From Acidobacteriota bacterium (GTDB taxonomy: Bacteria > Acidobacteriota > Polarisedimenticolia > Gp22-AA2): a stretch of 64,000 nt of DNA. The translations under genes and the position numbers were made by a program. Location of the stretch: the NCBI GenBank assembly GCA_046758905.1, contig JBHIBC010000006.1, positions 6,686 to 70,685 of the forward strand, read 5' to 3'. Of the stretch, positions 30,618 to 55,977 are shown in pieces (the first letter of the stretch is position 1; every line of letters starts with the position of its first letter). The notes beneath the pieces were generated by a model. It saw only the letters and a list, made by a program, of their open reading frames with translations. It did not search any database and had not been told where the DNA came from.

Positions 30618-30634
30618 CGACGGCGGGCACGAGG

Positions 30635-31243
30635 GTGGCGGCTTCGGGGGGGGCGCTGTCGGGGCGTCGAGCGTCGCCCGGCCCGCCCGTTCGGGGGGCG
30701 CCCGCCGGAGCCGCCAGGCGCGCGCGCGCGGCCGGAGATCTCGGCACCTCCGGGGCAGGCCTGTCGTCTCTGGTGCTGCTCCTCGTGCTCGCCCCGATCG
30801 CATCCTGCGTCCGGCCCGGAGAGGGCGCGCCTGTGGAGCAGCCGATCGCGTTCAGCCACAGGACCCACGCGGGCGATCACGATATCCCCTGTCTGTACTG
30901 CCACAGGTACGCGGAACGCTCGCCCGTCGCCGGCGTGCCCGCCGTCAACATCTGCATGGGCTGCCACGAGATCATCGGCGCGGACAGTCCGGAGGTCCAG
31001 GAGCTGACCGGGTTCTGGGAGCGGCAGGCGCCCATCGAGTGGATCAAGATCCACGACCTCCCCGACTTCGTTCGCTTCACGCACAAGCGTCACGCGCGCG
31101 CGGGGGTGGGGTGCGAGGAATGCCATGGCCCGGTGCCGACCATGGAACGGATCCAAGCGGTCGGCGAGCTGACCATGGGATGGTGTCTCGAATGCCACAG
31201 GGATCGGGACGCGGAGGACGATTGTCTGATCTGCCATCACTGA
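30635..31243 (+). CDS. actA: alternative complex III pentaheme cytochrome subunit
   Basis: QPIAFSHRTH, five CxxCH, LPDFVRFTH, TMGWCLECH; start uncertain. Confidence 0.88.
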   Translation: MAASGGALSGRRASPGPPVRGAPAGAARRARAAGDLGTSGAGLSSLVLLLVLAPIASCVRPGEGAPVEQPIAFSHRTHAGDHDIPCLYCHRYAERSPVAGVPAVNICMGCHEIIGADSPEVQELTGFWERQAPIEWIKIHDLPDFVRFTHKRHARAGVGCEECHGPVPTMERIQAVGELTMGWCLECHRDRDAEDDCLICHH

Positions 31244-31265
31244 ACCGCGCTGGGTCCGGCCCTCC

Positions 31266-34200: not shown

Positions 34201-34271
34201 TCGAGCACCTCAACACCAAGCCGGCGATCACATACCTGAAGAAGATAACCGCAGGTGACGGACTTGTCTGA
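31266..34271 (+). CDS. actB: alternative complex III subunit B (molybdopterin-oxidoreductase-like domain + Fe-S domain)
   Basis: Tat signal DRRSFL with lipobox Cys; GRPIKIEGNP; CIGCSACVVAC, CQQCENAPC, CVGTRYCANNCP, KGVMEKCTFC. Confidence 0.93.
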   Translation: MSSAIDRRSFLNLMGAAGLATFTGCGGEAPTKRIVPHLVQPEGLVPGVTTRYASVCGECPAGCGIVVATRDGRPIKIEGNPAHPRSRGALCARGQAALQGLYSPDRVRHPLRKPARGGFAKTTWEESLASLGGTLRELGRAGSLDRVALVTPHLSGSLERLVRMWVSEHPGASLHRHEAISYEPIVKAAEICFGRAALPRFRIEDADLVASFGADFLETWLSPVEYAAAFSRTRAYREGKIGLLIYIGSRHGLTAANADEVVPIRPGTCGALALGIIRVILEERLRSLPAPVDRSALNGLVAPYDAAAVYRITDVPPDRVMSLARRIARAPRCVALPGGVEHSGSNATENAVALNLLNYVLGAFGSLIEVPDDGPLPAGPGLKDLPRLIERMRRGEIGLLLLLGVNPAYSVPAASGFLEGLERVRTVVCCSDAFNETTAVSDLVLPIHHPLEAWGDSTPGAGIYGLMQPGVRPLGDSRHPGEVLIGIARASGLGSGKLSVYETYYDFLLDAWRELAQARHRSAPFEGFWEAALRRGGWFTEPEVRPVALSPDAFRIPYREPTIEDAPGPDGPQEGHGAPAGRVATLIVYPSLLRYDGRGANRSWLQEVPDPVLQNVWGSCVEVSTSTAADMGLSSGDVVRVSSAHGSIECPVYVSGLVYSGAVALALGQGHRGYGRGADGAGVNALDLLPLSQDELSGGQAYLRVKVRLQKTGRVETIPTPQGHPYDEGRGVVRSISLASMVELTSGRRGRPGDAEHGFRDLLEPHEHPKHRWGMAIDLNACIGCSACVVACYAENNIPVVGKEQFRIGREMAWIRIERFLREDRPGDTRFLPMLCQQCENAPCEPVCPVYATYHTEEGLNAQVYNRCVGTRYCANNCPYSARRFNWFSFRFPEPLNLQLNPDVTVRSKGVMEKCTFCVQRIVLAKDRAKDQDRDVKDGEIVPACAQTCPTKAITFGDLKDPDSLVSRKTRDPRGYRVFEHLNTKPAITYLKKITAGDGLV

Positions 34272-35598
34272 GCCGCTCCGGCCGGAGCTGACGTACGGGG
34301 AGGTCAACGCCGAGCTGATGCGCACCATCCGGGCGCCCGGACCGGCCTACTACGCCGGGCTGCTCGCGACCCTCGCGGGGTGTCTCATCGGCGCCTACTC
34401 GTGGTGGACGCAGATCTACTACGGCATGGGCGTCACGGGGCTGAACAATCCGGTCGGATGGGGGATCTACATCACGAATTTCGTCTTCTGGGTGGGGATC
34501 GCGCACTCCGGCACCCTGGTCTCGGCCATACTCTTTCTCCTGCGGGCGAAGTGGCGCACCGCGATCTATCGCAGCGCCGAGGCGATGACCGTGTTCGCCG
34601 TCCTGACGGCGGGGCTCTTCCCCCTCATCCACCTCGGTCGGGTGTGGCGCTTCTACTACCTGCTGCCCTACCCGAACGAGAGGCTGCTGTTCCCGAATTT
34701 CCGCTCGCCGCTCTGCTGGGACGTCTTCGCCGTGGTGACCTATCTCACGGTCAGCAGCATGTTCCTCTATCTCGGGATGATCCCCGACCTGGCCGCCTAC
34801 AGGGACCACCACACGGGCTGGAGGAGAAGGCTGTACGGGATCCTGTCCCTACGCTGGAGGGGATCCGGTGAGCAGTGGAGGCACTACTCCAGCGCCTACG
34901 CCTTCTTCGCCGCCCTCGCCACGCCGCTGGTCATCTCGGTCCACAGCATCGTCTCGTGGGACTTCGCCATGTCGGTCCTTCCCGGGTGGCACAGCACCAT
35001 CTTCGCGCCCTATTTCGTCGCGGGCGCCATCCACTCCGGACTCTGCATGGTGATCATCATCCTGATCCCCCTGCGGAGGATGTTCAAGCTCAAGGCGTTC
35101 ATCTCGATCGACCACTTCGAGAACATCGCCAAGCTCATCATCCTGACCGGGATGATCGTCGGCTACGCGTACCTCACGGAGATGGGCATCGCCTGGTACA
35201 GCGCCAACGATTTCGAGCAGGACGTCTTCCTGTACCGCCTGTTCGGGCACTACGCGCCGTTCATGTGGATGATGCTGGTCTTCAACGCGGTGCTTCCCCT
35301 GACCTTCTTCATCCGGAGCGTGAGGAGGAACTTGTTCTGTCTCTTCCTGATCGCGGTGCTGGTCAACATCGGGATGTGGTCGGAGCGGTTCGTGATCGTG
35401 ATCACGTCGCTCGGCCATGCGTTCGATCCCTTCGCGTGGGGGGAGTACCGCATGACCTGGGTCGAGGCGGGGATCACCATCGGCTCCTTCAGCTGGTTCT
35501 TCCTGCTCTTCCTGATCTTCATCAAGATGTTCCCCTGCGTCTCGATCACGGAGATGAAGGAGGCGCTCCCCCGGCCCGCGGGAGCGAGGACGGTCTGA
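34255..35598 (+). CDS. actC: alternative complex III NrfD-like quinol-binding subunit
   Basis: NFVFWVGIAHSGTLVSA, RSAEAMT, HLGR, SVHSIVSWDF, GWHSTIF. Confidence 0.94.
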   Translation: MTDLSEPLRPELTYGEVNAELMRTIRAPGPAYYAGLLATLAGCLIGAYSWWTQIYYGMGVTGLNNPVGWGIYITNFVFWVGIAHSGTLVSAILFLLRAKWRTAIYRSAEAMTVFAVLTAGLFPLIHLGRVWRFYYLLPYPNERLLFPNFRSPLCWDVFAVVTYLTVSSMFLYLGMIPDLAAYRDHHTGWRRRLYGILSLRWRGSGEQWRHYSSAYAFFAALATPLVISVHSIVSWDFAMSVLPGWHSTIFAPYFVAGAIHSGLCMVIIILIPLRRMFKLKAFISIDHFENIAKLIILTGMIVGYAYLTEMGIAWYSANDFEQDVFLYRLFGHYAPFMWMMLVFNAVLPLTFFIRSVRRNLFCLFLIAVLVNIGMWSERFVIVITSLGHAFDPFAWGEYRMTWVEAGITIGSFSWFFLLFLIFIKMFPCVSITEMKEALPRPAGARTV

Positions 35599-35601
35599 GC
35601 C

Positions 35602-36105
35602 ATGAGGCACGCCGGCGTGCTGGGGATCTTCGACGACTTCGACTCCTTCATCCGGGCGCTGAAGGAGCTCAAGGGCATGGAGCCCGACAGGATCGTCACC
35701 TACACCCCGATCCCCTGCCACGAGGTCGCCGAGGCGCTGGACCTGCGGCCGAGCCCCATGCGGTACTTCACCCTGGCCGGCGGGCTGCTCGGCTTCGCCG
35801 CGGGCGCCGCGCTGACGATCTACTGTCCGCTGGCCTATCCCCTGGTCGTGGGCGGAAAGCCGCTGATCTCCGTTCCGCCCTATCTGATCATCGCCTTCGA
35901 GCTGACGATCCTGTTCGCGACGATCGTCAGCGCGATCGGGTTCTTCGTGCTGTCCCCGTTCCGCGAGCCGGGCGCCGCACGAGCCTACGATCCGGGGTTC
36001 TCCGAGGACCGCTTCGGCGTGCTCGTCGCGAGCCGCCGGCTCGGCGCCTCGCGTCTAGAGGATGTGCTGAACCGACATGGGGCGGTGCAGACGCGTATCC
36101 AGTAG
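35602..36105 (+). CDS. actD: alternative complex III subunit D (DUF3341)
   Basis: TYTPIP, VGGKP, FELTIL, YDPGFSEDRF. Confidence 0.9.
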   Translation: MRHAGVLGIFDDFDSFIRALKELKGMEPDRIVTYTPIPCHEVAEALDLRPSPMRYFTLAGGLLGFAAGAALTIYCPLAYPLVVGGKPLISVPPYLIIAFELTILFATIVSAIGFFVLSPFREPGAARAYDPGFSEDRFGVLVASRRLGASRLEDVLNRHGAVQTRIQ

Positions 36106-36592
36106 GGCGCCCGTCCGCGCGGCGTTGCTCGGCGCGGCGTTGCTCGGCGCGGCGCTGATCGCCGGCTGCGGGCCGCCGGAGGGCTGGCCCTGGAGGCGGA
36201 ACATGTTCGATTTCCCCGGGCCGCGCCCGCAGGAGGAGGCCCGGCGGCCCCCGGAGCACGTCCTGGCCGCGGACGGGACGGCCCGCGGCCCGGCGCCCGG
36301 CGCGGCGGGCAGGGGCGGGGCGCGAGGGTCCGTGGAGAGGGGGAAGGTGCTCTTCGAGCGGTACTGCTCGGTCTGTCACGGCCCCCTGGGGACCGGGAGG
36401 GAGCTCACCGAGGACTACCCGACGCCGGATCTGACCGAGGAGGACTACCTGCTGCGATCGGATGGCGACATCTACGCGGTGATCGTGGACGGCGGGCTCA
36501 ACATGCCGAGCTACCGAGATGCGCTCACGGAGCCCGACCGCTGGCTCGTGATCCGCTACCTGAGGACGCTGCAGAGATCCCATGCGAAGTGA
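36077..36592 (+). CDS. actE: alternative complex III monoheme cytochrome lipoprotein
   Basis: lipobox IAGC; RGKVLFERYCSVCHG; MPSY; start uncertain. Confidence 0.85.
   Translation: MGRCRRVSSRAPVRAALLGAALLGAALIAGCGPPEGWPWRRNMFDFPGPRPQEEARRPPEHVLAADGTARGPAPGAAGRGGARGSVERGKVLFERYCSVCHGPLGTGRELTEDYPTPDLTEEDYLLRSDGDIYAVIVDGGLNMPSYRDALTEPDRWLVIRYLRTLQRSHAK
36117..36157 (+). repeat. 15-bp tandem repeat (~2.7 copies) in the actE signal peptide
   Basis: GCGCGGCGTTGCTCG twice plus a partial copy; encodes AALLG AALLG AALI. Confidence 0.7.
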
Positions 36593-37817
36593 TCCGGACC
36601 CGGACATCGATCCCCCGATCGTCAGCGCGGCGCGGTGGCTGAAGGTCCTCCTGATCCTCCTTCTCATCCCCGGCCTCCTGCTCTTCGTCGGGGGAGCCCT
36701 GATGCGCCAGGAACAGAGGATCTGGCAGATCTACCTCGTCAACCTGCTGTTCTGGTCGGGATTCTCTCAGGCCGGCGTGGTGGTCTCCGCCCTGCTGAAC
36801 GTGACGAACGGGAGGTGGGGCAGGAACCTGCGCCACATCATCGCCGGGCTGGCGCTTTTCTCCCCCGTCGCCTTCGTCCTGTTCCTCCTCCTGTTCATCG
36901 GCCGGGAGTCGATCTTCCCGTGGATCGAGAGCCCCGTCCCGGAAAAGTCGGCCTGGCTCGACATCACCCACCTCTTCGTCCGCGAGACCTTCAACCTCCT
37001 CCTCCTGAATATCCTGAACGGCGTGTTCCTCTACTTCTCCTTCCGCCCCGATGCCGGCCTCGTGGTGGCGAGGCGGGGCGCCGGATCGCACTTCCTGCTG
37101 AGGCGCATCAGCTCGGGGTGGAGGGGCCGCGACGAGGAGAGGCGACACTGCGAGATCGCTCTGACGCGGCTGTCGCCGGTCCTGCTGCTCGCCTACGCGA
37201 TCGTCTATTCGCTCGTGGCCTTTGATTTCGTCATGTCCCTGGACCCGCTCTGGTACAGCACCCTCTTCGGCGCCTATTACTTCATCACCAACCTCTACAT
37301 GGGGCTCGCTGGCATCGCGGTCGTCGCCATCGTCCTGCGCCGCGCGTTCGGGCTGGAGGCCCACATCACGGGATCGCACTGTCACGACCTCGGGACTCTG
37401 ATCTTCGCCTTCTGCATGATCGCCCTCGACTTCTTCTGGTCCCAGTACCTGGTGATCTGGTACGGGAACATCCCGGAGGAGATCGCCTTTCTGGTCAGGA
37501 GGATCAACGAGGATCGGTGGCGGCCTTTCACCCTGGCGGTGCTCGGGGCCTGCTTCGTGCTTCCCCTGCTGATCCTCCTGAGCCGCAGGGTCAAGAGAAC
37601 GCCCCGACTGCTGCTGCCCGTCGCCTGCCTCGTCTTCGGGAGCGTGTGGCTCGAGCGATACGTGCTCGTCGTCCCGACCATCTGGCACGGCGAGAGCGCC
37701 CCGTTCGCTCTCCCGGAGCTCGTGGTATCGGTGGCTTTTCTCTCCGGGTTCGTCCTGGTCTACCTCGCCTTTCTCGAGCGGTTCCCCATCCTCCCCTCCG
37801 ACGCGCGGCGGGCATGA
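36582..37817 (+). CDS. actF: alternative complex III subunit F
   Basis: polytopic; AFDFVMSLDPLWYSTLFG, HDLG, SQYLVIWYGNIPEE. Confidence 0.92.
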   Translation: MRSDPDPDIDPPIVSAARWLKVLLILLLIPGLLLFVGGALMRQEQRIWQIYLVNLLFWSGFSQAGVVVSALLNVTNGRWGRNLRHIIAGLALFSPVAFVLFLLLFIGRESIFPWIESPVPEKSAWLDITHLFVRETFNLLLLNILNGVFLYFSFRPDAGLVVARRGAGSHFLLRRISSGWRGRDEERRHCEIALTRLSPVLLLAYAIVYSLVAFDFVMSLDPLWYSTLFGAYYFITNLYMGLAGIAVVAIVLRRAFGLEAHITGSHCHDLGTLIFAFCMIALDFFWSQYLVIWYGNIPEEIAFLVRRINEDRWRPFTLAVLGACFVLPLLILLSRRVKRTPRLLLPVACLVFGSVWLERYVLVVPTIWHGESAPFALPELVVSVAFLSGFVLVYLAFLERFPILPSDARRA

Positions 37818-38000
37818 AGCCAACGCCGCCCGGGGAGCGCAGATTGCGCGCCCTTCCGGGAAGCACGCGTGCAAATTTTTCGCCCGGGAAGTATAATCCC
37901 CCGCATCTCTTACGGCCCACGGGGGACATGATGAGGACCGGAGGAGGCCCCCGGGCCCGCCGCGGGGCAGGAGGCCGGGGCAGAGACGGGGCCCTCGCGG

Positions 38001-38017
38001 CAGGCACGCTTGTTGCA
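38001..38017 (+). promoter_or_regulatory. putative sigma54 promoter
   Basis: CAGGCACGCTTGTTGCA: GG-N10-GC, near consensus. Confidence 0.7.
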
Positions 38018-38078
38018 GTCCTTCAAGTGCGAGTTCCTGCGAAGGCAGCTCCTGCGGCCCGCTGACGAGGGGCGGCGA

Positions 38079-38096
38079 TTGTGAAACATTTCACAT
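38079..38096. promoter_or_regulatory. Rex-type / CRP-type operator palindrome
   Basis: TTGTGAA-ACAT-TTCACAT; one mismatch to Rex TTGTGAAN4TTCACAA, exact CRP core TGTGA-N6-TCACA; AT-rich in a GC-rich background. Confidence 0.7.
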
Positions 38097-38109
38097 ACTG
38101 AGGCGCGCG

Positions 38110-39276
38110 GTGCGGACAGGGTCGAGCCAACGGCGCTGGAGCCGCCTGATCCGGGGGATCCTCCCCCTCCTCCTGATCGCCCTCGCCCCGGCGCCGGGCG
38201 CCGCCGGGGCTGACGGCCGCAGGCGGTCGGACCGGGGCCGGCCGGCCGCCGAGCTGGTGTGGCCCCTCCCTCCCGACCCGCCACGCATACGCTACGTCGA
38301 CTCCCTTCGGGGGAGCTCGAACTTCAGGAAGAAGCCGAGCCGCTGGAGGCGCTTCCTCCTCGGCCCCGAGACCGACCGCGGGATCTCCCTGAGGAAGCCC
38401 TATGGGGTCACCACCGACGCCGCGGGGCGGGTCTACGTCTCCGACACGGGGCTCGGCGCCGTGGTCGTATTCGATCGGGATGCCCGGGAGGTCCGCCTGC
38501 TGGGCCACGAGGGGCGCGTCGGTCTCGTGACGCCGATCGGGCTCGCCCTGGACGAGCGGGGGAGGCTGTTCGTCTCCGACGCCGATCTCGATCGCGTCTT
38601 CTGCTTCGGCGGCGAGGGCGAGGTCCTGCTCTCCCTCGGCAGGGAGGAGGGGCTGCACAACCCCGCCGGCCTGGCCATCGACACCGTGCGCCACAGGCTG
38701 TACGTGGCGGACAGCCACCTCCACCGCATCTTCCTGTACTCGACCGACGGCCTGTATCTGACCGCCTGGGGCTCCCGGGGCCGCGCGGAGGGCCATTTCA
38801 ACTTCCCGACCAACCTGGCCCTGGACGCCGGGGGGAACCTCCACGTCGTCGACACGGGCAACTTCCGGGTCCAGATATTCAGCCCCGACGGCGAGTTCCT
38901 CTCGGCGTTCGGCGAGATCGGGGACGGGCCGGGCCGCTTCCATAGACCCAAGGGGATCGGCCTGGACAGCGAGGGGCACATCTACGTCGCCGACGCCGCC
39001 TTCAACAACTTCCAGATCTTCAACCAGGGGGGGGAGCTCCTCCTCTTCGTGGGGACGCTCGGAAGCGGCCCGGGCAATTTCTGGCTGCCGGCCGGCATCC
39101 ACGTCGACCGCTCGGACCGCATCTACGTCGTCGACCAGATCAACGCGCGCGTGCAGATCTTCCAGTACCTGCCGGAGGCGGGAGCGCTCCCGGCCGGGTC
39201 GGATGCGACCGGGGCCGGCGAGCCGCGGCAGGTCCCACCGGGCCCGCAGCGGTCGGCCGCTGCGCGCCGGCCGTGA
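38110..39276 (+). CDS. secreted NHL-repeat (6-bladed beta-propeller) protein
   Basis: VWP.PP..PRI N-terminus; repeats of P.G.A.D..G.LYVAD. Confidence 0.92.
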   Translation: MRTGSSQRRWSRLIRGILPLLLIALAPAPGAAGADGRRRSDRGRPAAELVWPLPPDPPRIRYVDSLRGSSNFRKKPSRWRRFLLGPETDRGISLRKPYGVTTDAAGRVYVSDTGLGAVVVFDRDAREVRLLGHEGRVGLVTPIGLALDERGRLFVSDADLDRVFCFGGEGEVLLSLGREEGLHNPAGLAIDTVRHRLYVADSHLHRIFLYSTDGLYLTAWGSRGRAEGHFNFPTNLALDAGGNLHVVDTGNFRVQIFSPDGEFLSAFGEIGDGPGRFHRPKGIGLDSEGHIYVADAAFNNFQIFNQGGELLLFVGTLGSGPGNFWLPAGIHVDRSDRIYVVDQINARVQIFQYLPEAGALPAGSDATGAGEPRQVPPGPQRSAAARRP

Positions 39277-39293
39277 CGCCGTCCCCACCCATC

Positions 39294-39310
39294 CCGGCAC
39301 GGCTCTCGCA
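39294..39310 (+). promoter_or_regulatory. putative internal sigma54 promoter for the OmcE-like gene
   Basis: CCGGCACGGCTCTCGCA: GG-N10-GC, 50 nt before ATG 39360. Confidence 0.55.
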
Positions 39311-39359
39311 TATGCGGATAGGCCGCGAATGTATGGATCCACCAAAAGGAGATCGAGTC

Positions 39360-40067
39360 ATGAAGATCAGCCGTCTAACCCTCCTGCCCGGGGCGCTCGC
39401 GCTCGTCGTGGGCGTCCTCACGGAGCCGGCCTTCTCCCAGGCCAACATCATCGACACCAAGCACAACCTGTCCTCGACCGCCGGGGCGGACCAGATCGTC
39501 GACAAGTCGACGGACGAGGATCAGATCTGCGTCTTCTGCCACACGCCGCACCAGGCGAGCCCCAGCGCCCCGCTCTGGAACCACACCCAGTCCACGACCA
39601 TGTCCTACGGGGTGTACGGGTCCTCGACCCTCGACGCCTCGGACATCGCCGACATCGGGGGCGGAACGGACGTCTCGAACCTGTGCATGAGCTGCCACGA
39701 CGGCACCGTGGGCGTGAACGACCTCGGGAACCCCGCCAACGACACGGGCGGGAACCCGACCATGGGGACCGGCAACGAGCTGGACGCCACCGGGAAGATT
39801 CTCGGCACCCGATCGGCCAACCTGTCGACCGATCTGAGCAACGACCATCCGGTCAACTTCACCTACGACGCGGCCCTGGCCACCGCCGACGGCGAGCTGC
39901 AGACGCCGGACTCGGTCGACTTCGTGGACGCCGCCAAGACCGTCCCGCTGTTCTCGGCCAAGGTGCAGTGCGCCAGCTGCCACGATCCCCACGACAACAC
40001 GAATCCTCCCTTCCTCGTCAGATCCAACGTCGGCAGCGGCCTGTGCCTCACCTGTCACGCGAAGTGA
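39360..40067 (+). CDS. OmcE-like tetraheme cytochrome c (candidate cytochrome nanowire subunit)
   Basis: AGGAG RBS; Sec signal; TKHNLS, DQICVFCHTPH, PLWN, CMSCHDG, TDLSNDHPVNF, CASCHDPHDNT..PFL, GS.LCLTCH.K match my recollection of Geobacter OmcE. Confidence 0.85.
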   Translation: MKISRLTLLPGALALVVGVLTEPAFSQANIIDTKHNLSSTAGADQIVDKSTDEDQICVFCHTPHQASPSAPLWNHTQSTTMSYGVYGSSTLDASDIADIGGGTDVSNLCMSCHDGTVGVNDLGNPANDTGGNPTMGTGNELDATGKILGTRSANLSTDLSNDHPVNFTYDAALATADGELQTPDSVDFVDAAKTVPLFSAKVQCASCHDPHDNTNPPFLVRSNVGSGLCLTCHAK

Positions 40068-40153
40068 CGGACGATCGATAGCGGCGGTGAGGCCCCCCGC
40101 CCTCCCGACAGCCGGGGGCGGGCCCACCGCAACCCCCGCATGGACGCCGCCTC

Positions 40154-41896
40154 GTGACAGCCGGCCGAATGGCGACCCTGGTCGCGATCCTGATGATCGC
40201 CGTGGGCGTGGTCTACGCTCAGGGCGATCGCGATCGGTGGGCCGCCGCCGGCCCGTTCCGCTGGAGCGGCGTCGCCGAATGGGAGTACTACGAGAGCGAC
40301 TCCACCTCGCAGGGCGTGGGGACCGACTTCAACTCCTTCCGGCAGAAGTACTCCCTCATGCTGGACGGATTCCTCTGGGACCCGCGCTTCAACCGTTTCT
40401 CGATCGGCCTGGACGGCTACCTCACCGACCGCCGGGCGGACGGCGAGCAGCTCGACTCCGACCGGTTCGGATACCGCGCCCAGAGCACCTTCTTCCCGGC
40501 CCGCCCCTTCCCGCTGCGCCTGTACGCGCGCCGCGCGGTGACCGACGCCACGGGCGCCGCCCTCGTGGACAACGATCGGGAGACGGCCGCATGGGGGGCC
40601 GAGTGGCAGCTGTCCACGCGCAGGGTGCGGAGATTCAGCCTCCTCTTCGACAGGACCACGTTCGAGCTCACCAACCCGATCTCGCTCGAGGAGCGGCGCC
40701 AGACCGGACTGCTCAACTTCATGAGCCGTTTCGGGAACAGCGACGTCTCGTTCCGATACGGCCTGAGCTCCCAGAAGGAGCGGGTCAACGCCACCGATTT
40801 TGAGCGTCACAGCTTCACCCTCACCGACCGGACGGCCTTCGACAACGGCGCGACCCTCCTGGTGAGCGCCTTCCACACCCGCTCGGACGCGCTCTTCTCC
40901 ACGGGCCAGACGGACGATCTGAGGACGAGCCGCTTCTCGAGCCGGGTCGATCTGCCCTGGACGGACGGAGCCCGGCTGGGGTTCAGTTACGATCTCAACG
41001 ACAACAGCGGCCGTTTCCTGGACTCCACGAGCCACGTGGTGAAGGCCCAGGGGCGCTTCAAGATGAACTCCCACTGGGAATCGACGCTCGCCCTCGTGCT
41101 GGGCCGGATCGACAGCCTGACGCCGACGAGCGACATCCAGCAGGACCAGCTGGGCGCCCGCGCCGGTGTGAGTTACGGCCGTGACTGGACGAGGATCGGC
41201 CTCACGGCCACCTACTCGATCGGATACGACAGGGCGGACTTCAACATCGGCCCGGACGCGCGCAGCCTCAACCACCTCGCACAGGTGGACACCCGCTTCT
41301 CCCTGGGGGACGCGGGCGATCTGTTCTCCGCCCTCACCTACAGCGTCGGGGACAACGACACGACCGGGATCGGCTTCACCCTCGACGAGCTCCGCGCGAC
41401 GGTGGGCTGGGAGCGGGCGCTCGACGGGCTCTGGAGGGCGCGGGTGTCGACCACATTTCGCAACACGATCTACGACACCTTCCAGTTCGGGGTGCAGGAA
41501 AGCGACGAGATCAGCCTGCAGGGTTCGCTGAGCCACCCCAGAGGCGGCGTCTCGCTGTCCCTGTCGACGAGCGAGGGCGTCTCCGATTTCCTCCCCGACC
41601 CGGGAAGCGGCTCGCCGTTCCTGCCGGGAACCGACCTGGTCAACGAGCGCGACGTGGCCAGCGCCGGGCTCCACTGGAGGATCCTGCGACGCCTGCGCGC
41701 CCGCGTCCAGGCGCGCGTCGAGAGGCGCCGCTTCACGACCATCGGGAGGGAGGATATTCTCTCCCTCCATCCCGAGATCGAGTACCGTCTCGGCAGCTGG
41801 TCGCTCACGGCCGGTTACTCGCGCTACGAGCGGGAGAACGCGACCACCTTCGAGAACGCGACCTGGCTGCTGAGGGTCACGAGGCGGCTCCTGTGA
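40154..41896 (+). CDS. putative outer-membrane beta-barrel (porin) protein
   Basis: signal peptide; alternating polar/aromatic strands rich in S/T/D/Y/F over ~550 aa; no hemes; lies between cytochrome and NHL genes. Confidence 0.72.
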   Translation: MTAGRMATLVAILMIAVGVVYAQGDRDRWAAAGPFRWSGVAEWEYYESDSTSQGVGTDFNSFRQKYSLMLDGFLWDPRFNRFSIGLDGYLTDRRADGEQLDSDRFGYRAQSTFFPARPFPLRLYARRAVTDATGAALVDNDRETAAWGAEWQLSTRRVRRFSLLFDRTTFELTNPISLEERRQTGLLNFMSRFGNSDVSFRYGLSSQKERVNATDFERHSFTLTDRTAFDNGATLLVSAFHTRSDALFSTGQTDDLRTSRFSSRVDLPWTDGARLGFSYDLNDNSGRFLDSTSHVVKAQGRFKMNSHWESTLALVLGRIDSLTPTSDIQQDQLGARAGVSYGRDWTRIGLTATYSIGYDRADFNIGPDARSLNHLAQVDTRFSLGDAGDLFSALTYSVGDNDTTGIGFTLDELRATVGWERALDGLWRARVSTTFRNTIYDTFQFGVQESDEISLQGSLSHPRGGVSLSLSTSEGVSDFLPDPGSGSPFLPGTDLVNERDVASAGLHWRILRRLRARVQARVERRRFTTIGREDILSLHPEIEYRLGSWSLTAGYSRYERENATTFENATWLLRVTRRLL

Positions 41897-41908
41897 CGGG
41901 GAGGTGAG

Positions 41909-43006
41909 ATGAGCGCGGCCCGCGGGACGCCTGGAGAGGGGCGCCGCGCGCTCCTGCGCGCCGGGGTGCCCGCCTGCGGATGGGCGACGATGCTCCTGCT
42001 CGCGGGGCTCGCCTGCCAGCACAAGGCGCCGCGCGACGAGCTCGCCCTGCCGCGCCTCGTCTGGCCTCCTCCCCCGGCTCCGCCGCGCATCGAGCACATC
42101 GGGTCGTTCCGCGAGCCGTCCGACCTCGGGATCCGCAGGAACTGGCTGTCCCGGCTCTTCACCGCCCTCGCCGGCACGCGGCGGCCGACCGCGATGGTCC
42201 GCCCCTATGGCATCGCGGTGACCCCGGAGGGGCGCATCGCCGTCGCGGACCCGGGCGCGCGCTGCGTGCACCTGTACGATCCGGGCCGGCCGCGTTACCG
42301 CCGGGTGAGGTCGGCGGCGAACCAACGCCTGGTCTCGCCGGTGGGCGTCGCGATCGACCCCCGAGGACGGATCTACGTCGCGGACTCCTTCCGCCGGGCG
42401 ATCTTCCGCTACGGCCCGAAGGGTGAGTGGCTGGACACGCTGGGAGAGGAGGAGGGGCTCGTCAGGCCGACCGGCCTCGCCTTCGAGCCGGTACGCGGGA
42501 TCCTCTACGTGGTCGATACCGGCGGCCATCGCGTCCTGGGCTTCGACGCCGAGGGGAACCGCGTCCTGGAGTTCGGCCGCAGGGGCAGCGGGCCGGGCGA
42601 GTTCAACTACCCCGCCGCCATCGCCGTCGGCCCGTCCGGCGACCTGTACGTCACCGACTCGATGAACTTCCGGGTGCAGGTCCTGGATCCCGGCGGCCGG
42701 TTCCTCGGATCCTTCGGGGGGCCGGGGGACGGCCCGGGAGATTTCGACAAGGCCAAGGGCATCGCCCTCGATGCCGACGGCCACATCTACGTGGTGGAGG
42801 GCCTGCACGACGTGATCCACGTCTACGACGGCGGAGGGCGGCTGCTGACCGTCCTCGGCGGGACGGGGAGCGGCCGCGGTCGCTTCTGGCTCCCGACGGC
42901 GATCACCATCGACGGCGCCGGCCGCATCCTGATCTCCGACTCGGCGAACCGCCGAGTCCAGATCCTGCGCTACCTGGGGGAGCCCGGAGGGCGTTCCGAG
43001 GGATGA
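41909..43006 (+). CDS. NHL-repeat lipoprotein
   Basis: lipobox-like GLAC; VWPPPPAPPRI; six NHL-like repeats; paralog of 38110..39276. Confidence 0.9.
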   Translation: MSAARGTPGEGRRALLRAGVPACGWATMLLLAGLACQHKAPRDELALPRLVWPPPPAPPRIEHIGSFREPSDLGIRRNWLSRLFTALAGTRRPTAMVRPYGIAVTPEGRIAVADPGARCVHLYDPGRPRYRRVRSAANQRLVSPVGVAIDPRGRIYVADSFRRAIFRYGPKGEWLDTLGEEEGLVRPTGLAFEPVRGILYVVDTGGHRVLGFDAEGNRVLEFGRRGSGPGEFNYPAAIAVGPSGDLYVTDSMNFRVQVLDPGGRFLGSFGGPGDGPGDFDKAKGIALDADGHIYVVEGLHDVIHVYDGGGRLLTVLGGTGSGRGRFWLPTAITIDGAGRILISDSANRRVQILRYLGEPGGRSEG

Positions 43007-44778
43007 GGGGAAAGGTCCTGCTCGCCGCGCCTCTGCTTCTGCTGCTCGGCTCGGACGCCGGGCGGGCGGAGGTCACGGCCTCCAAGCACGACCTCTCGGT
43101 GAGCGGGACCGGCTCCATCGTGGCGGTGTCCGAGACCCAGGTGTGCATCTTCTGCCACACGCCGCACAACGCGAATCCCGCCGTTCCCCTGTGGAATCAC
43201 CAGCTCTCGTCCGTGGGGAGCTACTCGACCTACTCGAGCACGACCCTGACGCTCCCGACGCCGCTGCAGCAGCCGACGGGCAGCTCGAAGCTGTGCCTCA
43301 GCTGCCACGACGGCACGGTGGCCCTGGGCCAGACGGTCAACGACGGACTGATCGCGCTCCAGAACACGGGCGCGGGCGGGCGCATGCCGGCCGGCGCCTC
43401 CAACCTGGGGACCGATCTGGCCGACGACCACCCGATCTCGTTCCAGCCCAATCCGGCCAACAGCGAGACCCTGGACCCGCCGAGCGGAGACCCGGTGAGC
43501 CTGGACTCCGCCGGCGAGGTCCAATGCACCTCGTGCCACGATCCGCACACGGAGGACAACGACGCCGTCACCAGGCGATTCCTGGTCAAGAGCAATCAGG
43601 CCTCCGCCATCTGCCTAACCTGCCATCAGCCCGACTTCTGGAGCACCAACCCGACCAGCCATCAGTCCTCGACCGCTGCCTATCTCCCCGCCCAGGGCGC
43701 CCACACCGGGTACACGACGGTGGCGGACAACGCCTGTGAGAGCTGCCACCGCCCGCATTCGGGGAACGAGCCTCAGAGACTGCTGAAATTCGTGGAGGAG
43801 GCGACCTGCGACTCGTGCCACGACGGCTCGGTGGCCTCCAAGGACGTGTCGGCCGATTTCCTGAAGCCGTTTGCGCATCCCACCTTCTCCACGACCCCCT
43901 CGGTCCATGACGCGAGCGAATCGCCGTCGGATCCCACGGCCACCCTGCCCGAGATCAATCCCGGCGCGGCGCGCCACGCCGAGTGTCAGGACTGTCACAA
44001 TCCGCACGCGGCCGTCGGACAATCCGCCGCGGCGCCGGACGCGTCCGGCCGCCTGAGCGGGACCTGGGGGATCGACTCCGACGGGGCGCGGCGCGACCCG
44101 GCGCTCGCCGAGTACGAGATCTGCTACAAGTGCCACGCCGACAGCGCCAACAAGCCGCAGGAGGCGGGCCTGCCGTTCCCGCCCTACACCCAGAGGCAAA
44201 TCGTGCAGTTCAACACGCGGCTCGAGTTCGACCCCTTGAACCCCTCGCACCACGGGGTGGAGGCTCCCGGCGCGAACCCCGACGTGCCTTCCCTTCTCGC
44301 GCCCTACACGACCGCGAGCGTCATCTACTGCACCGACTGCCACAGCAGCGACACGGGCCCGGGCGCCGGCGGGGGCGGGGCCGACGGCCCCCACGGGTCG
44401 ATCTACAATCACCTCCTTGAGAGGAACCTGAACGTCGGGGACGGCAACTCGGGAACCGACTTCTCCAATATGTACGCCCTGTGCTTCAAGTGCCATAGCG
44501 AGGCCAGCATCCTGGGCGATCAGAGCTTCCCCCACCACAAACGGCACATCGATCGGGAGAACTCGTCCTGCATGGTCTGCCACGATCCGCACGGGGTCAG
44601 CGCCGCCCAGGGAAACGGCGTCAACAACTCCCACCTGATCAACTTCGACGTGTCCGTGGTGCTGCCGAACACGAACGGCATCCTCATGTTCGAGGACCGC
44701 GGTACGTTCTCCGGGGCCTGCTTCGTGAAATGCCACAACCGGAACCACGACCCCTCGAAGGGAACCGGTGACTATTGA
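43003..44778 (+). CDS. multiheme cytochrome c (11 CxxCH + 1 CxxxCH) with N-terminal OmcE-like domain
   Basis: ATG at 43003 overlapping upstream stop; SKHDLS, CIFCHTPH, PLWNH, CLSCHDG, TDLADDHPISF, then 8 further heme sites. Confidence 0.88.
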   Translation: MRGKVLLAAPLLLLLGSDAGRAEVTASKHDLSVSGTGSIVAVSETQVCIFCHTPHNANPAVPLWNHQLSSVGSYSTYSSTTLTLPTPLQQPTGSSKLCLSCHDGTVALGQTVNDGLIALQNTGAGGRMPAGASNLGTDLADDHPISFQPNPANSETLDPPSGDPVSLDSAGEVQCTSCHDPHTEDNDAVTRRFLVKSNQASAICLTCHQPDFWSTNPTSHQSSTAAYLPAQGAHTGYTTVADNACESCHRPHSGNEPQRLLKFVEEATCDSCHDGSVASKDVSADFLKPFAHPTFSTTPSVHDASESPSDPTATLPEINPGAARHAECQDCHNPHAAVGQSAAAPDASGRLSGTWGIDSDGARRDPALAEYEICYKCHADSANKPQEAGLPFPPYTQRQIVQFNTRLEFDPLNPSHHGVEAPGANPDVPSLLAPYTTASVIYCTDCHSSDTGPGAGGGGADGPHGSIYNHLLERNLNVGDGNSGTDFSNMYALCFKCHSEASILGDQSFPHHKRHIDRENSSCMVCHDPHGVSAAQGNGVNNSHLINFDVSVVLPNTNGILMFEDRGTFSGACFVKCHNRNHDPSKGTGDY

Positions 44779-45688
44779 GGAAGAAGGGAGGCGGGCCGTC
44801 CACCGACGGGCGGCCGCGACGCTCGCGGCGATCGCGTGCTCGCTCCTGATCGTGATCATCGTGGAGGCGCCGCCGGACGGCGGGGAAGGGATCCGCGCCG
44901 CCGAGGCGCCGGGGGGGACCCCGCATCCCGACCTGGAGGGCGTCGAGGACGCGACCTGCGCCGACTGCCACGAGGACCGGGTGGAGGGCGCCGTGGTGCA
45001 CCCGCCGGCCGCGGCCGGGGAGTGCGAATCCTGTCACGAGTTCGCAGGAGCCGGGGAGGAGACGACCGTCTCGCTGATGCTGCCGGAAGAGGAGCTCTGC
45101 GTGACCTGCCACGAGAACCCCGCCGCCGCCCGAGGGGCCGTCGCGCGGCATCCTCCCGCCGAGGAGGGGGCCTGCACCCTCTGCCACGATCCCCATGCCT
45201 CGGGACTGCCGTTCCTGTTCCGCGACCCGGGGAGCGACATCTGCCTGGAGTGCCACGGCGATGTGGCGGAAGAGCTCGAGCGGCCTCAGGTCCACGGCGC
45301 GGTCCGGAGCCTGGGCTGCCCCGCCTGCCACGACCCTCACGCCTCGCCCGTCCGGAGGCTGCTGCGCCGCGCGGGGAACGAGCTGTGTCTCGAGTGCCAC
45401 CTCGGCACCTCCGGCAGCCACCCCCTGAGCGACGCCGGCGAGGTGCTGCTGTTCGAGAGGTGGCCCGCGGACGCGCGCCTGTTCGACGGCATCCCGAAGA
45501 TCGGGCTGCGGGCGGGGGGCACGGGGCATCCGGTGGCGCGCCACCCCGTCCGGGCGGAGCGCAACCCTCTCCGCGCGGAGGAGCCGTTCTGGTGCGGCAG
45601 CTGCCACCCGCCGCACGGCTCGCTCCGCCGACCGCTTCTCGTAGGGGACAGCGGCGGCAGCTTTTGCCTGCAGTGCCACAAGAAGTGA
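44768..45688 (+). CDS. nonaheme paired-CXXCH periplasmic cytochrome c
   Basis: 9 CxxCH in repeated HxP..CxxCHxPH..LCxxCH units. Confidence 0.88.
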   Translation: MTIEEEGRRAVHRRAAATLAAIACSLLIVIIVEAPPDGGEGIRAAEAPGGTPHPDLEGVEDATCADCHEDRVEGAVVHPPAAAGECESCHEFAGAGEETTVSLMLPEEELCVTCHENPAAARGAVARHPPAEEGACTLCHDPHASGLPFLFRDPGSDICLECHGDVAEELERPQVHGAVRSLGCPACHDPHASPVRRLLRRAGNELCLECHLGTSGSHPLSDAGEVLLFERWPADARLFDGIPKIGLRAGGTGHPVARHPVRAERNPLRAEEPFWCGSCHPPHGSLRRPLLVGDSGGSFCLQCHKK

Positions 45689-45837
45689 CGCGCGCGGCGA
45701 CACCCTCTTGGTCGCCATCTCCACTGCTGGTATCGTTCGCCCCGGAGGTCTCGGCGGGAGGATGAGCGGCCGGCCGGGTTTCAGCATGTAGTCCGCAGTA
45801 CGGGAGGCCGGTGGGAGGGCCCCCCGGGCCGGTCCGC

Positions 45838-45854
45838 CTGGCACGCTGTTCGCA
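45838..45854 (+). promoter_or_regulatory. putative sigma54 promoter
   Basis: CTGGCACGCTGTTCGCA: GG-N10-GC, 35 nt before ATG 45889. Confidence 0.7.
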
Positions 45855-45888: not shown

Positions 45889-46440
45889 ATGAAGCGAATG
45901 GTTGCTCTGCTGGCGGTGTCCGTCGGTGTCGTCCTGGTGCTGTCGTCGCCGCGCCCCTCCCGGGCGGCCGAGCGCGCCTACATCGGCGCCCAGAAGTGCA
46001 AGATGTGCCACAACTCCGCGGCCAAGGGGGCGCAGTTCAAGAAATGGACCGAATCGCGCCACTCGAGGGCGTACGCCACCCTCGCCTCGGAGCGGGCCCG
46101 GAAGATCGCGGCCGGGAGGGGGATTGCAGACCCGCAGAAGGCGGACGAGTGCCTGCGCTGCCACGTGGCCGGACACGGCGCGCCCGCCGAGATGCTGACC
46201 CAGAAGTATTCCCCGGAGGACGGCGTCAGCTGCGAGGCCTGCCACGGCCCCGGCGGCGACTACTGGAAGATGAGCGTCATGAAGGACCCGACGAAGGCGG
46301 TCGCGGCCGGCCTGGTCATTCCCGAGGAGAAGACCTGCACGGCCTGTCACAACAGCGACAGCCCGACCTTCGAGTCGTTCGACTTCGCGACCTACTCGAA
46401 GAAGATCGCTCATCCCAACCCGAAGAAGGCCGCGAAATAA
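45889..46440 (+). CDS. cytochrome c554-like tetraheme cytochrome
   Basis: GGAGG RBS; [32 protein letters not shown]. Confidence 0.88.
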
Positions 46441-46883
46441 TGGCTGGGGAGCGGCCGGGGGGCTCGCGGCGCGGCTTTCTGAACTGGTTTCTCGGGACGT
46501 CGTTGGGCGCGATGTGCGCGTCGATCCTGTACCCGGTGGCGCGCTACATCTCGCCGCCGGAGGTGCCGGAGGCGGCGACCTCCAGGGTCGTGGCCGGGCG
46601 GGTCGGGGAGCTGAAGCCGAACGAGGGGAAGCTGTTCCGCTTCGGGAGCCGGCCCGGCCTGCTGATCCTCACCCGCGAGGGCGAGTACAGGGCCTACGCC
46701 GCGACCTGCACCCACCTCAACTGCACCGTCCAGTTCCGCGGCGATCTGCAGCAGATCTGGTGCGCCTGCCACAACGGCTTCTACGACCTGAACGGCGTCA
46801 ACGTAGCCGGCCCACCGCCGCGCCCGCTCGAGAGGTACGCGGTGCACGTCGCGGACGACGAGGTGGTGGTGACCAGGACATGA
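46440..46883 (+). CDS. Rieske [2Fe-2S] protein (copy 1)
   Basis: Tat-like SRRGFL; CTHLNC and CACHNGFY; GPPPRPL. Confidence 0.93.
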
Positions 46884-47995: not shown

Positions 47996-47996
47996 G

Positions 47997-51442: not shown

Positions 51443-51455
51443 GGGAGGAGATCCC

Positions 51456-51914: not shown

Positions 51915-51927
51915 GGGACGGCCGACC

Positions 51928-55975: not shown

Positions 55976-55977
55976 CG

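What the first reader, a model, noticed from the sequence alone, without database searches (positions are those of the whole stretch)
39294..40067. OmcE-like cytochrome nanowire subunit with its own promoter
Seen: a 235-aa Sec-exported, acidic, Thr/Ser/Asp-rich tetraheme with blocks TKHNLS / DQICVFCHTPH / PLWN / CMSCHDG / TDLSNDHPVNF / PLF / CxSCH..HDNT..PFL / GS.LCL.CH.K. From memory, these blocks follow Geobacter sulfurreducens OmcE in order and in length, and omcE there also lies next to an NHL-repeat gene and multiheme genes. A dedicated GG-N10-GC promoter and a strong AGGAG RBS fit a structural subunit needed in excess over its neighbours (inference).
Basis: partly seen in the sequence, partly recalled or inferred. 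Interest (0 to 1): 0.9.

Follow-up and report, generated by a model that had tools for sequence, protein, structure and literature searches.

The report
OmcE-type cytochrome nanowire gene cluster
This gene encodes a four-heme protein that closely resembles the building block of Geobacter's conductive OmcE filaments and lies among matching export genes in an Acidobacteria-like bacterium, so it extends a known kind of microbial 'nanowire' to a new group rather than revealing a new kind.

Summary

It is a full-length homologue of both solved OmcE filaments. Against PDB 7TFS it scores E 1.3e-39. Against a stored protein that matches the 7TFS chain at 500 bits over 224 residues, it is 40% identical. 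Against 9YUQ it scores E 4e-31. All 16 heme-ligand residues are invariant.

The flanking genes match the published minimal omcE cluster:
- two NHL beta-propellers;
- two multiheme cytochromes.

The order NHL-omcE-barrel is the same as in the reference-type locus. The host is an Acidobacteriota-like MAG, a phylum not among the five listed for such clusters.

Polymerisation could not be tested: the complex predictor was unavailable and the heme-free monomer model failed.

The "own promoter" is a two-mismatch sigma-54-like site. It is not above chance by itself, but its position is plausible.

One extra finding: the cluster's 12-heme cytochrome starts with an OmcE-type module, which makes it a candidate filament base.

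Verdict: a new member of a known kind, of moderate interest.

The parts
38002..38017 (+). sigma-54-like -24/-12 element (AGGCACGCTTGTTGCA, 1 mismatch to the recalled consensus), about 93 nt upstream of the first NHL gene. Possible promoter for the whole cluster.
   Evidence: It is intergenic. rpoN is present in the genome.
38110..39276 (+). NHL-repeat beta-propeller protein 1 (388 aa). It has an N-terminal signal-like stretch with no Cys.
   Evidence: Pfam NHL E 1.1e-28, 4 stretches. It is 37% identical to the NHL gene directly upstream of omcE in the reference-type locus L124.
39295..39310 (+). sigma-54-like GG-N10-GC element (CGGCACGGCTCTCGCA, 2 mismatches) in the 83-nt gap before the OmcE-like gene
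   Evidence: It is not above chance by itself.
39347..39351 (+). AGGAG ribosome-binding site, 8 nt before the ATG
   Evidence: read
39360..40067 (+). OmcE-family tetraheme c-type cytochrome, 235 aa (P0001). This is the proposed filament subunit.
40154..41896 (+). large outer-membrane beta-barrel, 580 aa (575 aa if it starts at the ATG at 40169). No Pfam family. About 28-29 predicted strands.
   Evidence: No Pfam or NCBIfam hit. AF2 with a 30-sequence alignment gave pLDDT 88.9, all-beta. Foldseek: MtrB 6r2q_B TMq 0.45, LptD 0.41-0.42, FimD usher 0.34. Atlas: MtrB/PioB cluster TM 0.60. hhalign to the barrels next to reference-type omcE: probability 90.9%, E 1.1e-6, over 54 N-terminal columns only.
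41909..43006 (+). NHL-repeat beta-propeller protein 2 (365 aa) with a possible lipobox (…LLLAGLAC…)
   Evidence: Pfam NHL E 1.4e-32. N-terminus. The lipobox was judged by eye.
43003..44778 (+). 12-heme cytochrome (11 CxxCH + 1 CxxxCH, 591 aa). Its first ~210 residues are an OmcE-type tetraheme module. Its start overlaps the NHL2 stop by 4 nt.
   Evidence: 7tfs_A E 2.5e-31; all 16 ligand residues aligned; 47% identity to P0001 over residues 25-234
44768..45688 (+). 9-heme cytochrome (306 aa, paired-CXXCH type). Related to the multiheme genes of reference-type omcE clusters.
   Evidence: Pfam Paired_CXXCH_1 E 6.6e-40. It is 33-35% identical to the multiheme genes in L124, L126 and L130.

Best explanation
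P0001 (39360-40067) is an OmcE-family tetraheme cytochrome. It most likely serves as the repeating subunit of an extracellular, heme-stacked conductive filament made by an Acidobacteriota-like bacterium.

Proposed path (inferred steps are marked):
1. The precursor is exported by Sec, and four hemes are attached in the periplasm. A cytochrome c assembly family is present in the genome.
2. The subunit passes or is mounted on the ~28-strand outer-membrane barrel encoded directly downstream, helped by the two NHL beta-propeller proteins. This is inferred from the published omcE cluster model.
3. Subunits stack head-to-tail, with one histidine completing a heme of the neighbouring subunit. This is inferred from the two solved OmcE filaments and was not tested here.
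4. Electrons would come from the quinol-oxidising complexes encoded on both sides (ACIII-like upstream; cytochrome b/Rieske and b561-multiheme fusions downstream) through the 12-heme and 9-heme cytochromes of the cluster. This is inferred.

The direction of electron flow (out to minerals or in from them) cannot be told from sequence.
For: Homology
- P0001 matches both solved OmcE filaments over full length: 7tfs_A E 1.3e-39 (139.4 bits) and 9yuq_N E 4e-31 (111.7 bits).
- 7TFS is named as OmcE in PMC12954529 (figure legend). 9YUQ occurs once in the Petersen paper (term count; the passage was not shown), which reports the D. soudanensis OmcE bundle structure.
- P0001 is 40% identical to a protein that matches 7tfs_A at 500 bits. 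That protein scores 116.6 bits against 9yuq_N. So P0001 is about as close to each proven filament as they are to each other.

Heme ligands
- All 4 CxxCH motifs and the 4 further His (H35, H64, H163, H211) are invariant. This holds in 17 of 17 homologues and in a 9-row alignment that includes reference-type OmcE.

Cluster inventory
- Petersen et al. describe the minimal cluster as two multiheme cytochromes, two beta-propeller lipoproteins, OmcE and a large beta-barrel. The window has all six.
- The order NHL-omcE-barrel is the same in loci L124, L126 and L128.
- The same arrangement, from NHL through a tetraheme to a 580-806-aa barrel (with one extra gene between tetraheme and barrel in L015, L016 and L026), recurs in MAGs titled Acidobacteriota, Nitrospirae, Poribacteria, Pseudomonadota and Gammaproteobacteria (L014-L017, L019, L021, L026) and, without the NHL gene upstream, in L024.

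Phylogeny
- An AU test does not reject one clade of P0001's group plus reference-type OmcE (p 0.646). The constrained tree is 10.8 lnL units better than the free quick search.

Genome context
- Of 21 listed frames with at least 3 CxxCH (GC3 filter), all five with at least 9 lie in this window.
- The Cytochrom_C_asm family is present twice in the genome.
Against: - No test of polymerisation was possible.
- In the free trees P0001 sits in its own well-supported 11-row clade, apart from the reference-type OmcE clade. Deep nodes are weak.
- The barrel is only weakly tied to the barrels next to reference-type omcE. hhalign covers 54 columns. The barrel profile found nothing at E <= 0.01 in the genome that holds the 7TFS-like protein, and gave E 6e-4 and 1e-3 in two others.
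- No glycosyltransferase genes follow the cluster, unlike the Geobacter type.
- Petersen et al. themselves warn that OmcE-like tetrahemes are widely distributed and not all need be nanowires.
- There are no expression data.
Confidence: 0.6

Rival explanations
1. P0001 does not polymerise. It is one fixed component of a porin-cytochrome conduit: the barrel, the NHL 'scaffold' proteins, and the tetraheme, 12-heme and 9-heme cytochromes together carry electrons across the outer membrane to the cell surface only.
For: - The barrel's best structural matches include MtrB (TMq 0.45; MtrB/PioB cluster TM 0.60).
- A 2026 preprint describes Acidobacteriota 'porin-scaffold-cytochrome' clusters with 'OmcE-like' multihemes and treats them as conduits. 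The word nanowire occurs 0 times in it.
- Deng 2018 proposed that NHL propellers stabilise an outer-membrane cytochrome complex (passage).
- P0001's clade is separate from proven OmcE in the free trees.
Against: - P0001 is as similar to the two proven filament subunits as they are to each other.
- It has the same length and the same NHL-omcE-barrel order as the reference-type locus.
- An orphan second copy at 79% identity fits a polymer subunit at least as well as a fixed complex part.
Confidence: 0.28
2. P0001 is a soluble periplasmic electron shuttle. It would work like small tri- and tetraheme carriers, passing electrons between the inner-membrane complexes encoded on both sides and the outer-membrane proteins.
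For: - It is small, acidic and Sec-exported.
- It is embedded between ACIII-like and cytochrome b/Rieske modules.
Against: - There is no sequence relation to the c3/c7 shuttles beyond heme motifs: the Pfam c7 and c3 hits cover only the last ~35 residues.
- There is full-length homology to extracellular filament subunits.
- It is conserved next to an outer-membrane barrel in several phyla.
Confidence: 0.07
3. This rival concerns the promoter sub-claim only. The gene has no promoter of its own and is transcribed with the NHL gene from the better sigma-54-like site at 38002-38017. The 39295 site is then a chance match.
For: - The 39295 site has 2 mismatches, and such sites are not enriched in the window (8 found, 5.74 expected).
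- It is absent upstream of the closest orthologues (L014, L005) and of the paralogue (L002), at up to 3 mismatches. Those upstream regions do not align.
- No sigma-70-type site or terminator was found in 37800-45800.
Against: - 3 of the 8 window sites are intergenic, although only 9.3% of the window is. All 3 lie upstream of + strand genes of this island. My rough binomial estimate is about 0.03, made post hoc.
- A perfect-consensus site lies about 65 nt upstream of the OmcE-like gene of L015, and a 2-mismatch site about 78 nt upstream of reference-type omcE in L124.
- rpoN is present in the genome.
Confidence: 0.45

Closest known systems
OmcE of Geobacter sulfurreducens (GSU0618; filament structure PDB 7TFS)
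   Same: - Tetraheme precursor of nearly the same length (235 vs 232 aa).
- 40% identity over the full length.
- All four CxxCH motifs and four distal His are conserved.
- Gene order NHL propeller - omcE - large barrel, with paired-CXXCH multiheme genes in the cluster.
- The gene name GSU0618 comes from PMC7962754 (passage).
   Different: - A different phylum (Acidobacteriota-like).
- A separate clade in the free trees.
- The barrel is 580 aa rather than about 750 aa and is only weakly similar.
- No glycosyltransferase block follows.
- The cluster also carries a 12-heme cytochrome with an OmcE-type module. No such protein was seen in L124 beyond omcE itself.
OmcE of Desulfuromonas soudanensis WTL (DSOUD_2954; PDB 9YUQ; Petersen et al. 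2026, PMC13712944)
   Same: - E 4e-31 over query 14-235.
- A minimal cluster without a glycosylation block: two multihemes, two beta-propellers, OmcE and a barrel (section 8 of the paper).
   Different: - Whether P0001 forms antiparallel bundles cannot be judged. [quoted passage not shown]
Acidobacteriota 'EET1' porin-scaffold-cytochrome clusters (bioRxiv 10.64898/2026.05.27.727921)
   Same: - Same phylum.
- Porin, scaffold protein and 'OmcE-like' multiheme (8-13 hemes) in one cluster (section 9 read).
   Different: - Those clusters are reported from the orders Terriglobales and UBA7540 and are read as conduits, not filaments.
- I could not compare sequences: none are in the text, and supplements were closed.
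NHL-propeller plus multiheme outer-membrane cytochrome clusters of Desulfovibrio ferrophilus IS5 (DFE_0448-0451, DFE_0461-0465; Deng 2018, PMC5815863)
   Same: [quoted passage not shown]
   Different: That paper places its cytochromes apart from OmcE in a tree (legend only seen).
OmcS hexaheme filament (PDB 6EF8)
   Same: - Insulated heme chain with cross-subunit His ligation.
- OmcE's four hemes superimpose on the first four of OmcS (PMC9473688, passages).
   Different: - P0001 shows no detectable sequence match to OmcS. Only 7tfs_A and 9yuq_N scored below E 0.01 in the PDB search.
MtrCAB porin-cytochrome complex (PDB 6R2Q)
   Same: - A large outer-membrane barrel encoded beside multiheme cytochromes. 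MtrB gives the highest query-normalised TM-score for the barrel model (TMq 0.45).
   Different: - No sequence similarity.
- The cytochromes are of other families.

Membership tests
OmcE family (tetraheme cytochrome filament subunit) | Four CxxCH heme-binding motifs in a protein of about 200-230 mature residues | tested here: met
   CxxCH at C57, C109, C204 and C229. The precursor is 235 aa.
OmcE family (tetraheme cytochrome filament subunit) | Four further conserved histidines giving bis-His ligation of all hemes | tested here: met
   H35, H64, H163 and H211 are invariant in alignment A1 (17 rows) and in A5 (9 rows, including reference-type OmcE). The paper states that these eight positions are the conserved core.
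OmcE family (tetraheme cytochrome filament subunit) | Full-length sequence homology to experimentally solved OmcE filaments | tested here: met
   7tfs_A E 1.3e-39 and 9yuq_N E 4e-31. 94/234 identities, E 2e-48, to the 7TFS-like protein.
OmcE family (tetraheme cytochrome filament subunit) | [quoted passage not shown] This is the criterion Petersen et al. used to select likely nanowire formers. | tested here: met
   compared with L124, L126, L128 and L130. Lipoprotein status of the propellers was judged by eye only. NHL1 has no Cys near its N-terminus.
OmcE family (tetraheme cytochrome filament subunit) | Placement in one clade with proven OmcE subunits | tested here: inconclusive
   The free trees put P0001 in a separate 11-row clade with 96-97 support. 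The AU test does not reject a joint clade (p 0.646).
OmcE family (tetraheme cytochrome filament subunit) | Head-to-tail polymer in which a histidine of one subunit ligates a heme of the next | not testable with these tools
The AF2 monomer without hemes gave pLDDT 40.6. I could not establish which of the four His is the cross-subunit ligand, because Wang 2022 is not held.
OmcE family (tetraheme cytochrome filament subunit) | Extracellular location and conductivity | not testable with these tools
   This needs experiment.
sigma-54-dependent promoter | GG and GC separated by 10 nt within a match to the -24/-12 consensus (consensus recalled, not from a call) | tested here: met
   CGGCACGGCTCTCGCA at 39295-39310, 2 mismatches.
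sigma-54-dependent promoter | Match stronger or more frequent than chance, or conserved in orthologues | tested here: inconclusive
   8 sites found against 5.74 expected. The site is absent upstream of L014, L005 and L002. However, 3 of the 8 sites are intergenic in this island, and similar sites lie upstream of the L015 and L124 genes.
sigma-54-dependent promoter | rpoN in the genome and an enhancer-binding activator | tested here: inconclusive
   rpoN (PF04552) is present, E 1.9e-63. No sigma-54 activator domain was seen among the 35 window ORFs scanned with Pfam. Eight further called ORFs of the window (seven before position 9100, one near 62900) were not scanned.

The most novel reading that the evidence does not exclude
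The 12-heme cytochrome two genes downstream (43003-44778) begins with a complete OmcE-type tetraheme module. That module scores E 2.5e-31 to 7TFS and has all 16 ligand residues.

This protein may be the missing in-operon base (or cap) of the filament. Its N-terminal module would co-polymerise with P0001 subunits through the same heme/His interface. Its eight further hemes would carry the chain through the ~28-strand barrel to the periplasm.

[quoted passage not shown] Reference-type loci indeed lack such a fusion.

Here, and in L014, L017 and L026, the fusion sits in the cluster. Fusion and stand-alone tetraheme co-occur in 40 of the 80 fetched loci.
Probability: 0.25. Interest if true: 0.75.

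Novelty: new member of a known kind. Interest (0 to 1): 0.5.

Why it matters
Cytochrome nanowires have been solved from only a few organisms. For bacteria these are G. sulfurreducens and D. soudanensis (PMC13712944).

A complete OmcE-type cluster in an Acidobacteriota-like genome would extend candidate nanowire producers to a phylum that is abundant in soils and sediments. That phylum is not among the five listed by Petersen et al. The cluster sits in the one region of the genome that holds all five listed frames with at least 9 CxxCH motifs.

The cluster is compact: six genes in about 7.6 kb, with no glycosylation block. That makes it a convenient candidate for heterologous expression.

The OmcE-type module on the neighbouring 12-heme cytochrome gives a concrete, testable candidate for how such filaments are anchored and supplied with electrons. 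The literature states this as an open question.

Tried and rejected
- AF2 monomer of P0001 with a 17-row alignment gave mean pLDDT 40.6. The model was unusable, so no fold search was run on it.
- The hairpin after the omcE stop codon has MFE -43.8 kcal/mol against -39.8 +/- 3.7 for shuffles (z -1.08). This is no evidence for an attenuator or terminator.
- The sigma-70 promoter and intrinsic terminator scan of 37800-45800 found 0 and 0.
- The upstream regions of the orthologues and the paralogue do not align, so there is no conserved promoter block.
- The Geoalkalibacter locus L073 was first taken as a reference cluster. I rejected it because its tetraheme lies beside a 976-aa NHL/FG-GAP-type protein with no barrel.
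- The barrel profile A3 searched in 81 Desulfuromonadia genomes gave 9 hits. The six I fetched are a second cluster type: NHL, 5-heme, barrel, NHL, 12-heme fusion, tetraheme. They are not the reference omcE cluster.
- I considered whether P0001's ninth His (H75, in PLWNH) marks it as the 'anchor' type with nine His. I rejected this because that column is not invariant in A1 or A5 and is R in the reference-type rows L113 and L126.
- Tree: all 74 stand-alone modules were kept, but only 23 of 79 fusion modules (every fourth, plus four chosen). The 142-row FastTree used all modules that passed E <= 1e-10 with at least 150 matched positions.
- Supplementary files were not consulted. The list of homologues behind Fig. 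3D of Petersen et al. and the peat preprint's supplementary discussion may bear on the claim that Acidobacteriota clusters of this exact type are not yet in print.
- That claim rests on four searches: 'OmcE'+'Acidobacteri' (11 papers), 'OmcE-like' (3 papers), 'OmcS'+'NHL'+'nanowire', and 'Thermoanaerobaculia'+'multiheme'+'extracellular electron transfer' (listing only).
Full report
**The feature**

The + strand ORF from ATG 39360 to TGA 40067 encodes 235 residues. AGGAG at 39347-39351 lies 8 nt before the start codon.

- The protein has a hydrophobic N-terminus ending AFSQA, four CxxCH motifs, 8 Cys and 9 His.
- From residue 28 on, the pI is 4.42, with T 10.6%, D 10.6% and S 9.6%.
- Pfam sees only generic heme-motif families, with Paired_CXXCH_1 at E 5.4e-13 on the last 33 residues. 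NCBIfam gives nothing above its cut-offs except the doubled-CXXCH domain.

**Homology to OmcE**

A search of all PDB chains gave two real matches. They were 7tfs_A (E 1.3e-39, 139.4 bits, query 13-235 on chain 9-232) and 9yuq_N (E 4e-31, 111.7 bits). The next hit was at E 0.017.

- 7TFS is the G. sulfurreducens OmcE filament (PMC12954529, figure legends).
- 9YUQ occurs once in the Petersen paper (term count; the passage was not shown). That paper reports the D. soudanensis OmcE bundle structure, PMC13712944.
- Among 81 genomes of the class that holds a Geoalkalibacter MAG, 54 carry a match to P0001 at E <= 1e-20.
- One of those proteins (locus L113) matches 7tfs_A at 500 bits over 224 residues. 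BLASTP of P0001 against it gives 94/234 identities (40%), E 2e-48.
- Petersen et al. report 41% identity between the two solved OmcE subunits (section 8). The L113 protein scores 116.6 bits against 9yuq_N.

P0001 is therefore about as close to each proven filament subunit as they are to each other.

All 16 heme-ligand residues are invariant. These are the four CxxCH motifs plus H35, H64, H163 and H211. This holds in a 17-row alignment of homologues. It also holds in a 9-row alignment containing the paralogue, reference-type OmcE rows and three 12-heme N-terminal modules.

**The neighbourhood**

Genes were called by third-position GC and scanned with Pfam. The cluster, in order, is:

| Coordinates | Product |
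|---|---|
| 38110-39276 | NHL propeller 1 |
| 39360-40067 | P0001 (OmcE-like tetraheme) |
| 40154-41896 | 580-aa protein with no family |
| 41909-43006 | NHL propeller 2 |
| 43003-44778 | cytochrome with 11 CxxCH + 1 CxxxCH |
| 44768-45688 | 9-heme cytochrome |

The 580-aa protein has only 24 relatives at E <= 0.001 among 8000 scored candidates. All are unnamed or 'hypothetical'.

- With a 30-row alignment, AF2 gives pLDDT 88.9 and an all-beta barrel of 29 listed strand elements.
- Foldseek finds large outer-membrane barrels. MtrB has the highest query-normalised TM-score (0.45), then LptD (0.41-0.42) and the FimD usher (0.34).
- The ESM Atlas lists Acidobacteriota hypothetical clusters and an MtrB/PioB cluster at TM 0.60.

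This inventory equals the 'smallest' omcE cluster of Petersen et al.: two multiheme cytochromes, two beta-propeller lipoproteins, OmcE and a large beta-barrel.

**Direct comparison with reference-type loci**

Around the 7TFS-like gene (L124) the genes read: purine genes, ResB- and CcsB-like genes, two multiheme genes, an NHL gene with a lipobox, omcE, a 755-aa barrel, then glycosyltransferase-like genes (the ResB/CcsB and glycosyltransferase labels are by eye, following section 8 of Petersen, and were not family-searched).

- L126 and L128 show the same NHL-omcE-barrel order.
- L130 shows 17-heme, NHL, 8-heme, NHL, omcE.
- The window's NHL proteins are 34-38% identical to the NHL genes of L124, L126 and L130 (about 31% in L128). 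Its 9-heme protein is 32-35% identical to the multiheme genes of L124, L126 and L130.
- The barrel is the weak link. hhalign of my barrel alignment against three reference-type barrels gives 90.9% probability (E 1.1e-6), but only over 54 N-terminal columns.
- No glycosyltransferase block follows the window's cluster, so it is of the minimal type.

**Distribution**

The best 80 come from many phyla.

Most of these 80 matches are the N-terminal module of a 540-900-aa, 11-CxxCH cytochrome preceded by an NHL gene.

- Stand-alone tetraheme and fusion co-occur in 40 of the 80 loci.
- 24 loci have only the fusion, 13 only a stand-alone, and 3 neither. Many loci are cut by contig ends.
- The same arrangement, from NHL through a tetraheme to a barrel (with one extra gene between tetraheme and barrel in L015, L016 and L026), is seen in L014 and L015 (both titled Acidobacteriota), L016, L017, L019, L021 and L026. 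L024 has tetraheme and barrel but no NHL gene upstream.
- L014 shares all six genes with the window, at 53-76% identity.

**Host taxonomy**

The closest named relative is an Acidobacteriota MAG. Fusion modules from two same-family genomes group with a MAG titled Thermoanaerobaculia (support 98). The host is therefore probably of that phylum and perhaps that class; this is inference.

Among 40 relatives, 14 have any match at E <= 1e-3. Seven of those have matches better than 1e-20.

**Phylogeny of the module**

- In a 142-row FastTree, the fusion modules form one group: 74 fusions plus 3 split forms, support 97.
- P0001 sits in an 11-row clade of stand-alones (support 97; 96 in the 97-row IQ-TREE quick tree). 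Nine of its rows were shown to lie next to a barrel gene; L002 is an orphan and L006's locus was too short to tell.
- That clade is separate from the clade holding L124, L125, L126 and L122.
- An AU test does not reject joining these two groups (p 0.646). The constrained tree is 10.8 lnL units better than the free quick search.

Membership of the wider family is firm. Orthology to Geobacter OmcE in the strict sense is open.

**Promoter**

The GG-N10-GC element is real (39296-39309). As a 2-mismatch match to the recalled consensus it is not enriched: 8 sites were found against 5.74 expected.

Evidence for the promoter reading:
- rpoN is present in the genome.
- 3 of the 8 sites are intergenic, although only 9.3% of the window is. 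All three lie upstream of + strand genes of this island, at 38002, 39295 and 45839. The last lies before the likely ATG at 45889 of a c554-like gene.
- A perfect-consensus site lies about 65 nt before the L015 OmcE-like gene. A 2-mismatch site lies about 78 nt before reference-type omcE in L124.

Evidence against:
- No such site lies before the closest orthologues or the paralogue.
- No activator gene was found among the 35 window ORFs scanned with Pfam.

Expression could not be examined.

**What could not be tested**

Polymerisation is the property that makes a nanowire, and it remains inference.
- The complex predictor was unavailable.
- The heme-free monomer model failed.
- The primary OmcE paper is not held, so I cannot say which His is the cross-subunit ligand.

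**A lead beyond the finding**

The 12-heme cytochrome's first ~210 residues match 7tfs_A at E 2.5e-31 and keep all ligand residues.

Petersen et al. discuss the need for an OmcE-like 'anchor' or 'tip'. They found their anchor candidate outside the cluster and state that no tip candidate appears in the OmcE operons. The reference-type loci I examined indeed lack the fusion. The window, L014, L017 and L026 have it in the cluster. In L015 and L016 it is split into a 4-heme and a 7-heme gene.

I propose it as a candidate filament base, with low confidence.

**Verdict**

- The finding is a new member of a known kind, in a phylum without a demonstrated nanowire.
- Related Acidobacteriota clusters have been sketched in a 2026 preprint, but without a filament reading.
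- Interest is moderate.

Noticed in passing
window 29832-37817: An alternative-complex-III-like operon lies directly upstream of the cluster. Its parts are c554/c7-type cytochromes, a 1001-aa molybdopterin-like plus 4Fe-4S subunit, NrfD-like (447 aa), ActD (E 5.6e-40), a monoheme cytochrome c, and a second NrfD-like protein.
   Followed up: partly
window 45889-54242: A run of further respiratory modules follows the cluster: a c554-like tetraheme, cytochrome b (493 aa), a 9-heme cytochrome, a 736-aa fusion of 13 CxxCH motifs with a cytochrome b561 domain, Rieske protein, a second cytochrome b, and another 9-heme cytochrome. Of 21 listed frames with at least 3 CxxCH (GC3 filter), all five with at least 9 are in this window.
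   Followed up: partly
own genome, contig C62:2357-3061 (L002, L127): A second stand-alone OmcE-like gene, 79% identical to P0001. No NHL, barrel or multiheme gene lies on its 16.5-kb contig. It may be an alternative or minor subunit.
   Followed up: partly
window 38002-38017 and 45839-45854: Two one-mismatch sigma-54-like sites. Both are intergenic and upstream of + strand genes: the first NHL gene and the c554-like gene.
   Followed up: partly
L015:12565-14465 and L016:12778-14678: In two loci the 11/12-heme fusion is replaced by adjacent 4-heme (OmcE-type) and 7-heme genes. The 4-heme modules group with the fusion modules in the tree. This suggests gene fission or fusion.
   Followed up: no
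L129:1639-9630 (- strand): A 2663-aa open frame with 57 CxxCH motifs lies directly beside an OmcE-like tetraheme gene in a Desulfuromonadia genome.
   Followed up: no
L106-L111: A second cluster type occurs in Desulfuromonadia: NHL, 5-heme, a 670-aa barrel (read in L107; the barrel frames in the other loci span 578-927 aa), NHL, a 10-11-CxxCH fusion with an OmcE-type module, and a tetraheme nearby. These barrels match the window's barrel profile better (E 3.5e-10 to 2.9e-5) than the reference-type omcE barrels do.
   Followed up: partly
window 54424-56931 and 27155-29872: Two long ORFs (835 aa and 905 aa) have no Pfam family, apart from a weak DUF5801 hit at E 3.9e-4 for the second. The Atlas does not hold the first.
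   Followed up: no
window 13000-15975 (- strand), 10525-12687, 57619-61326: Three other genes: a hybrid GAF-PAS histidine kinase with a receiver domain, a 720-aa protein with a di-haem peroxidase (CCP_MauG) domain, and a pyruvate:ferredoxin oxidoreductase.
   Followed up: no
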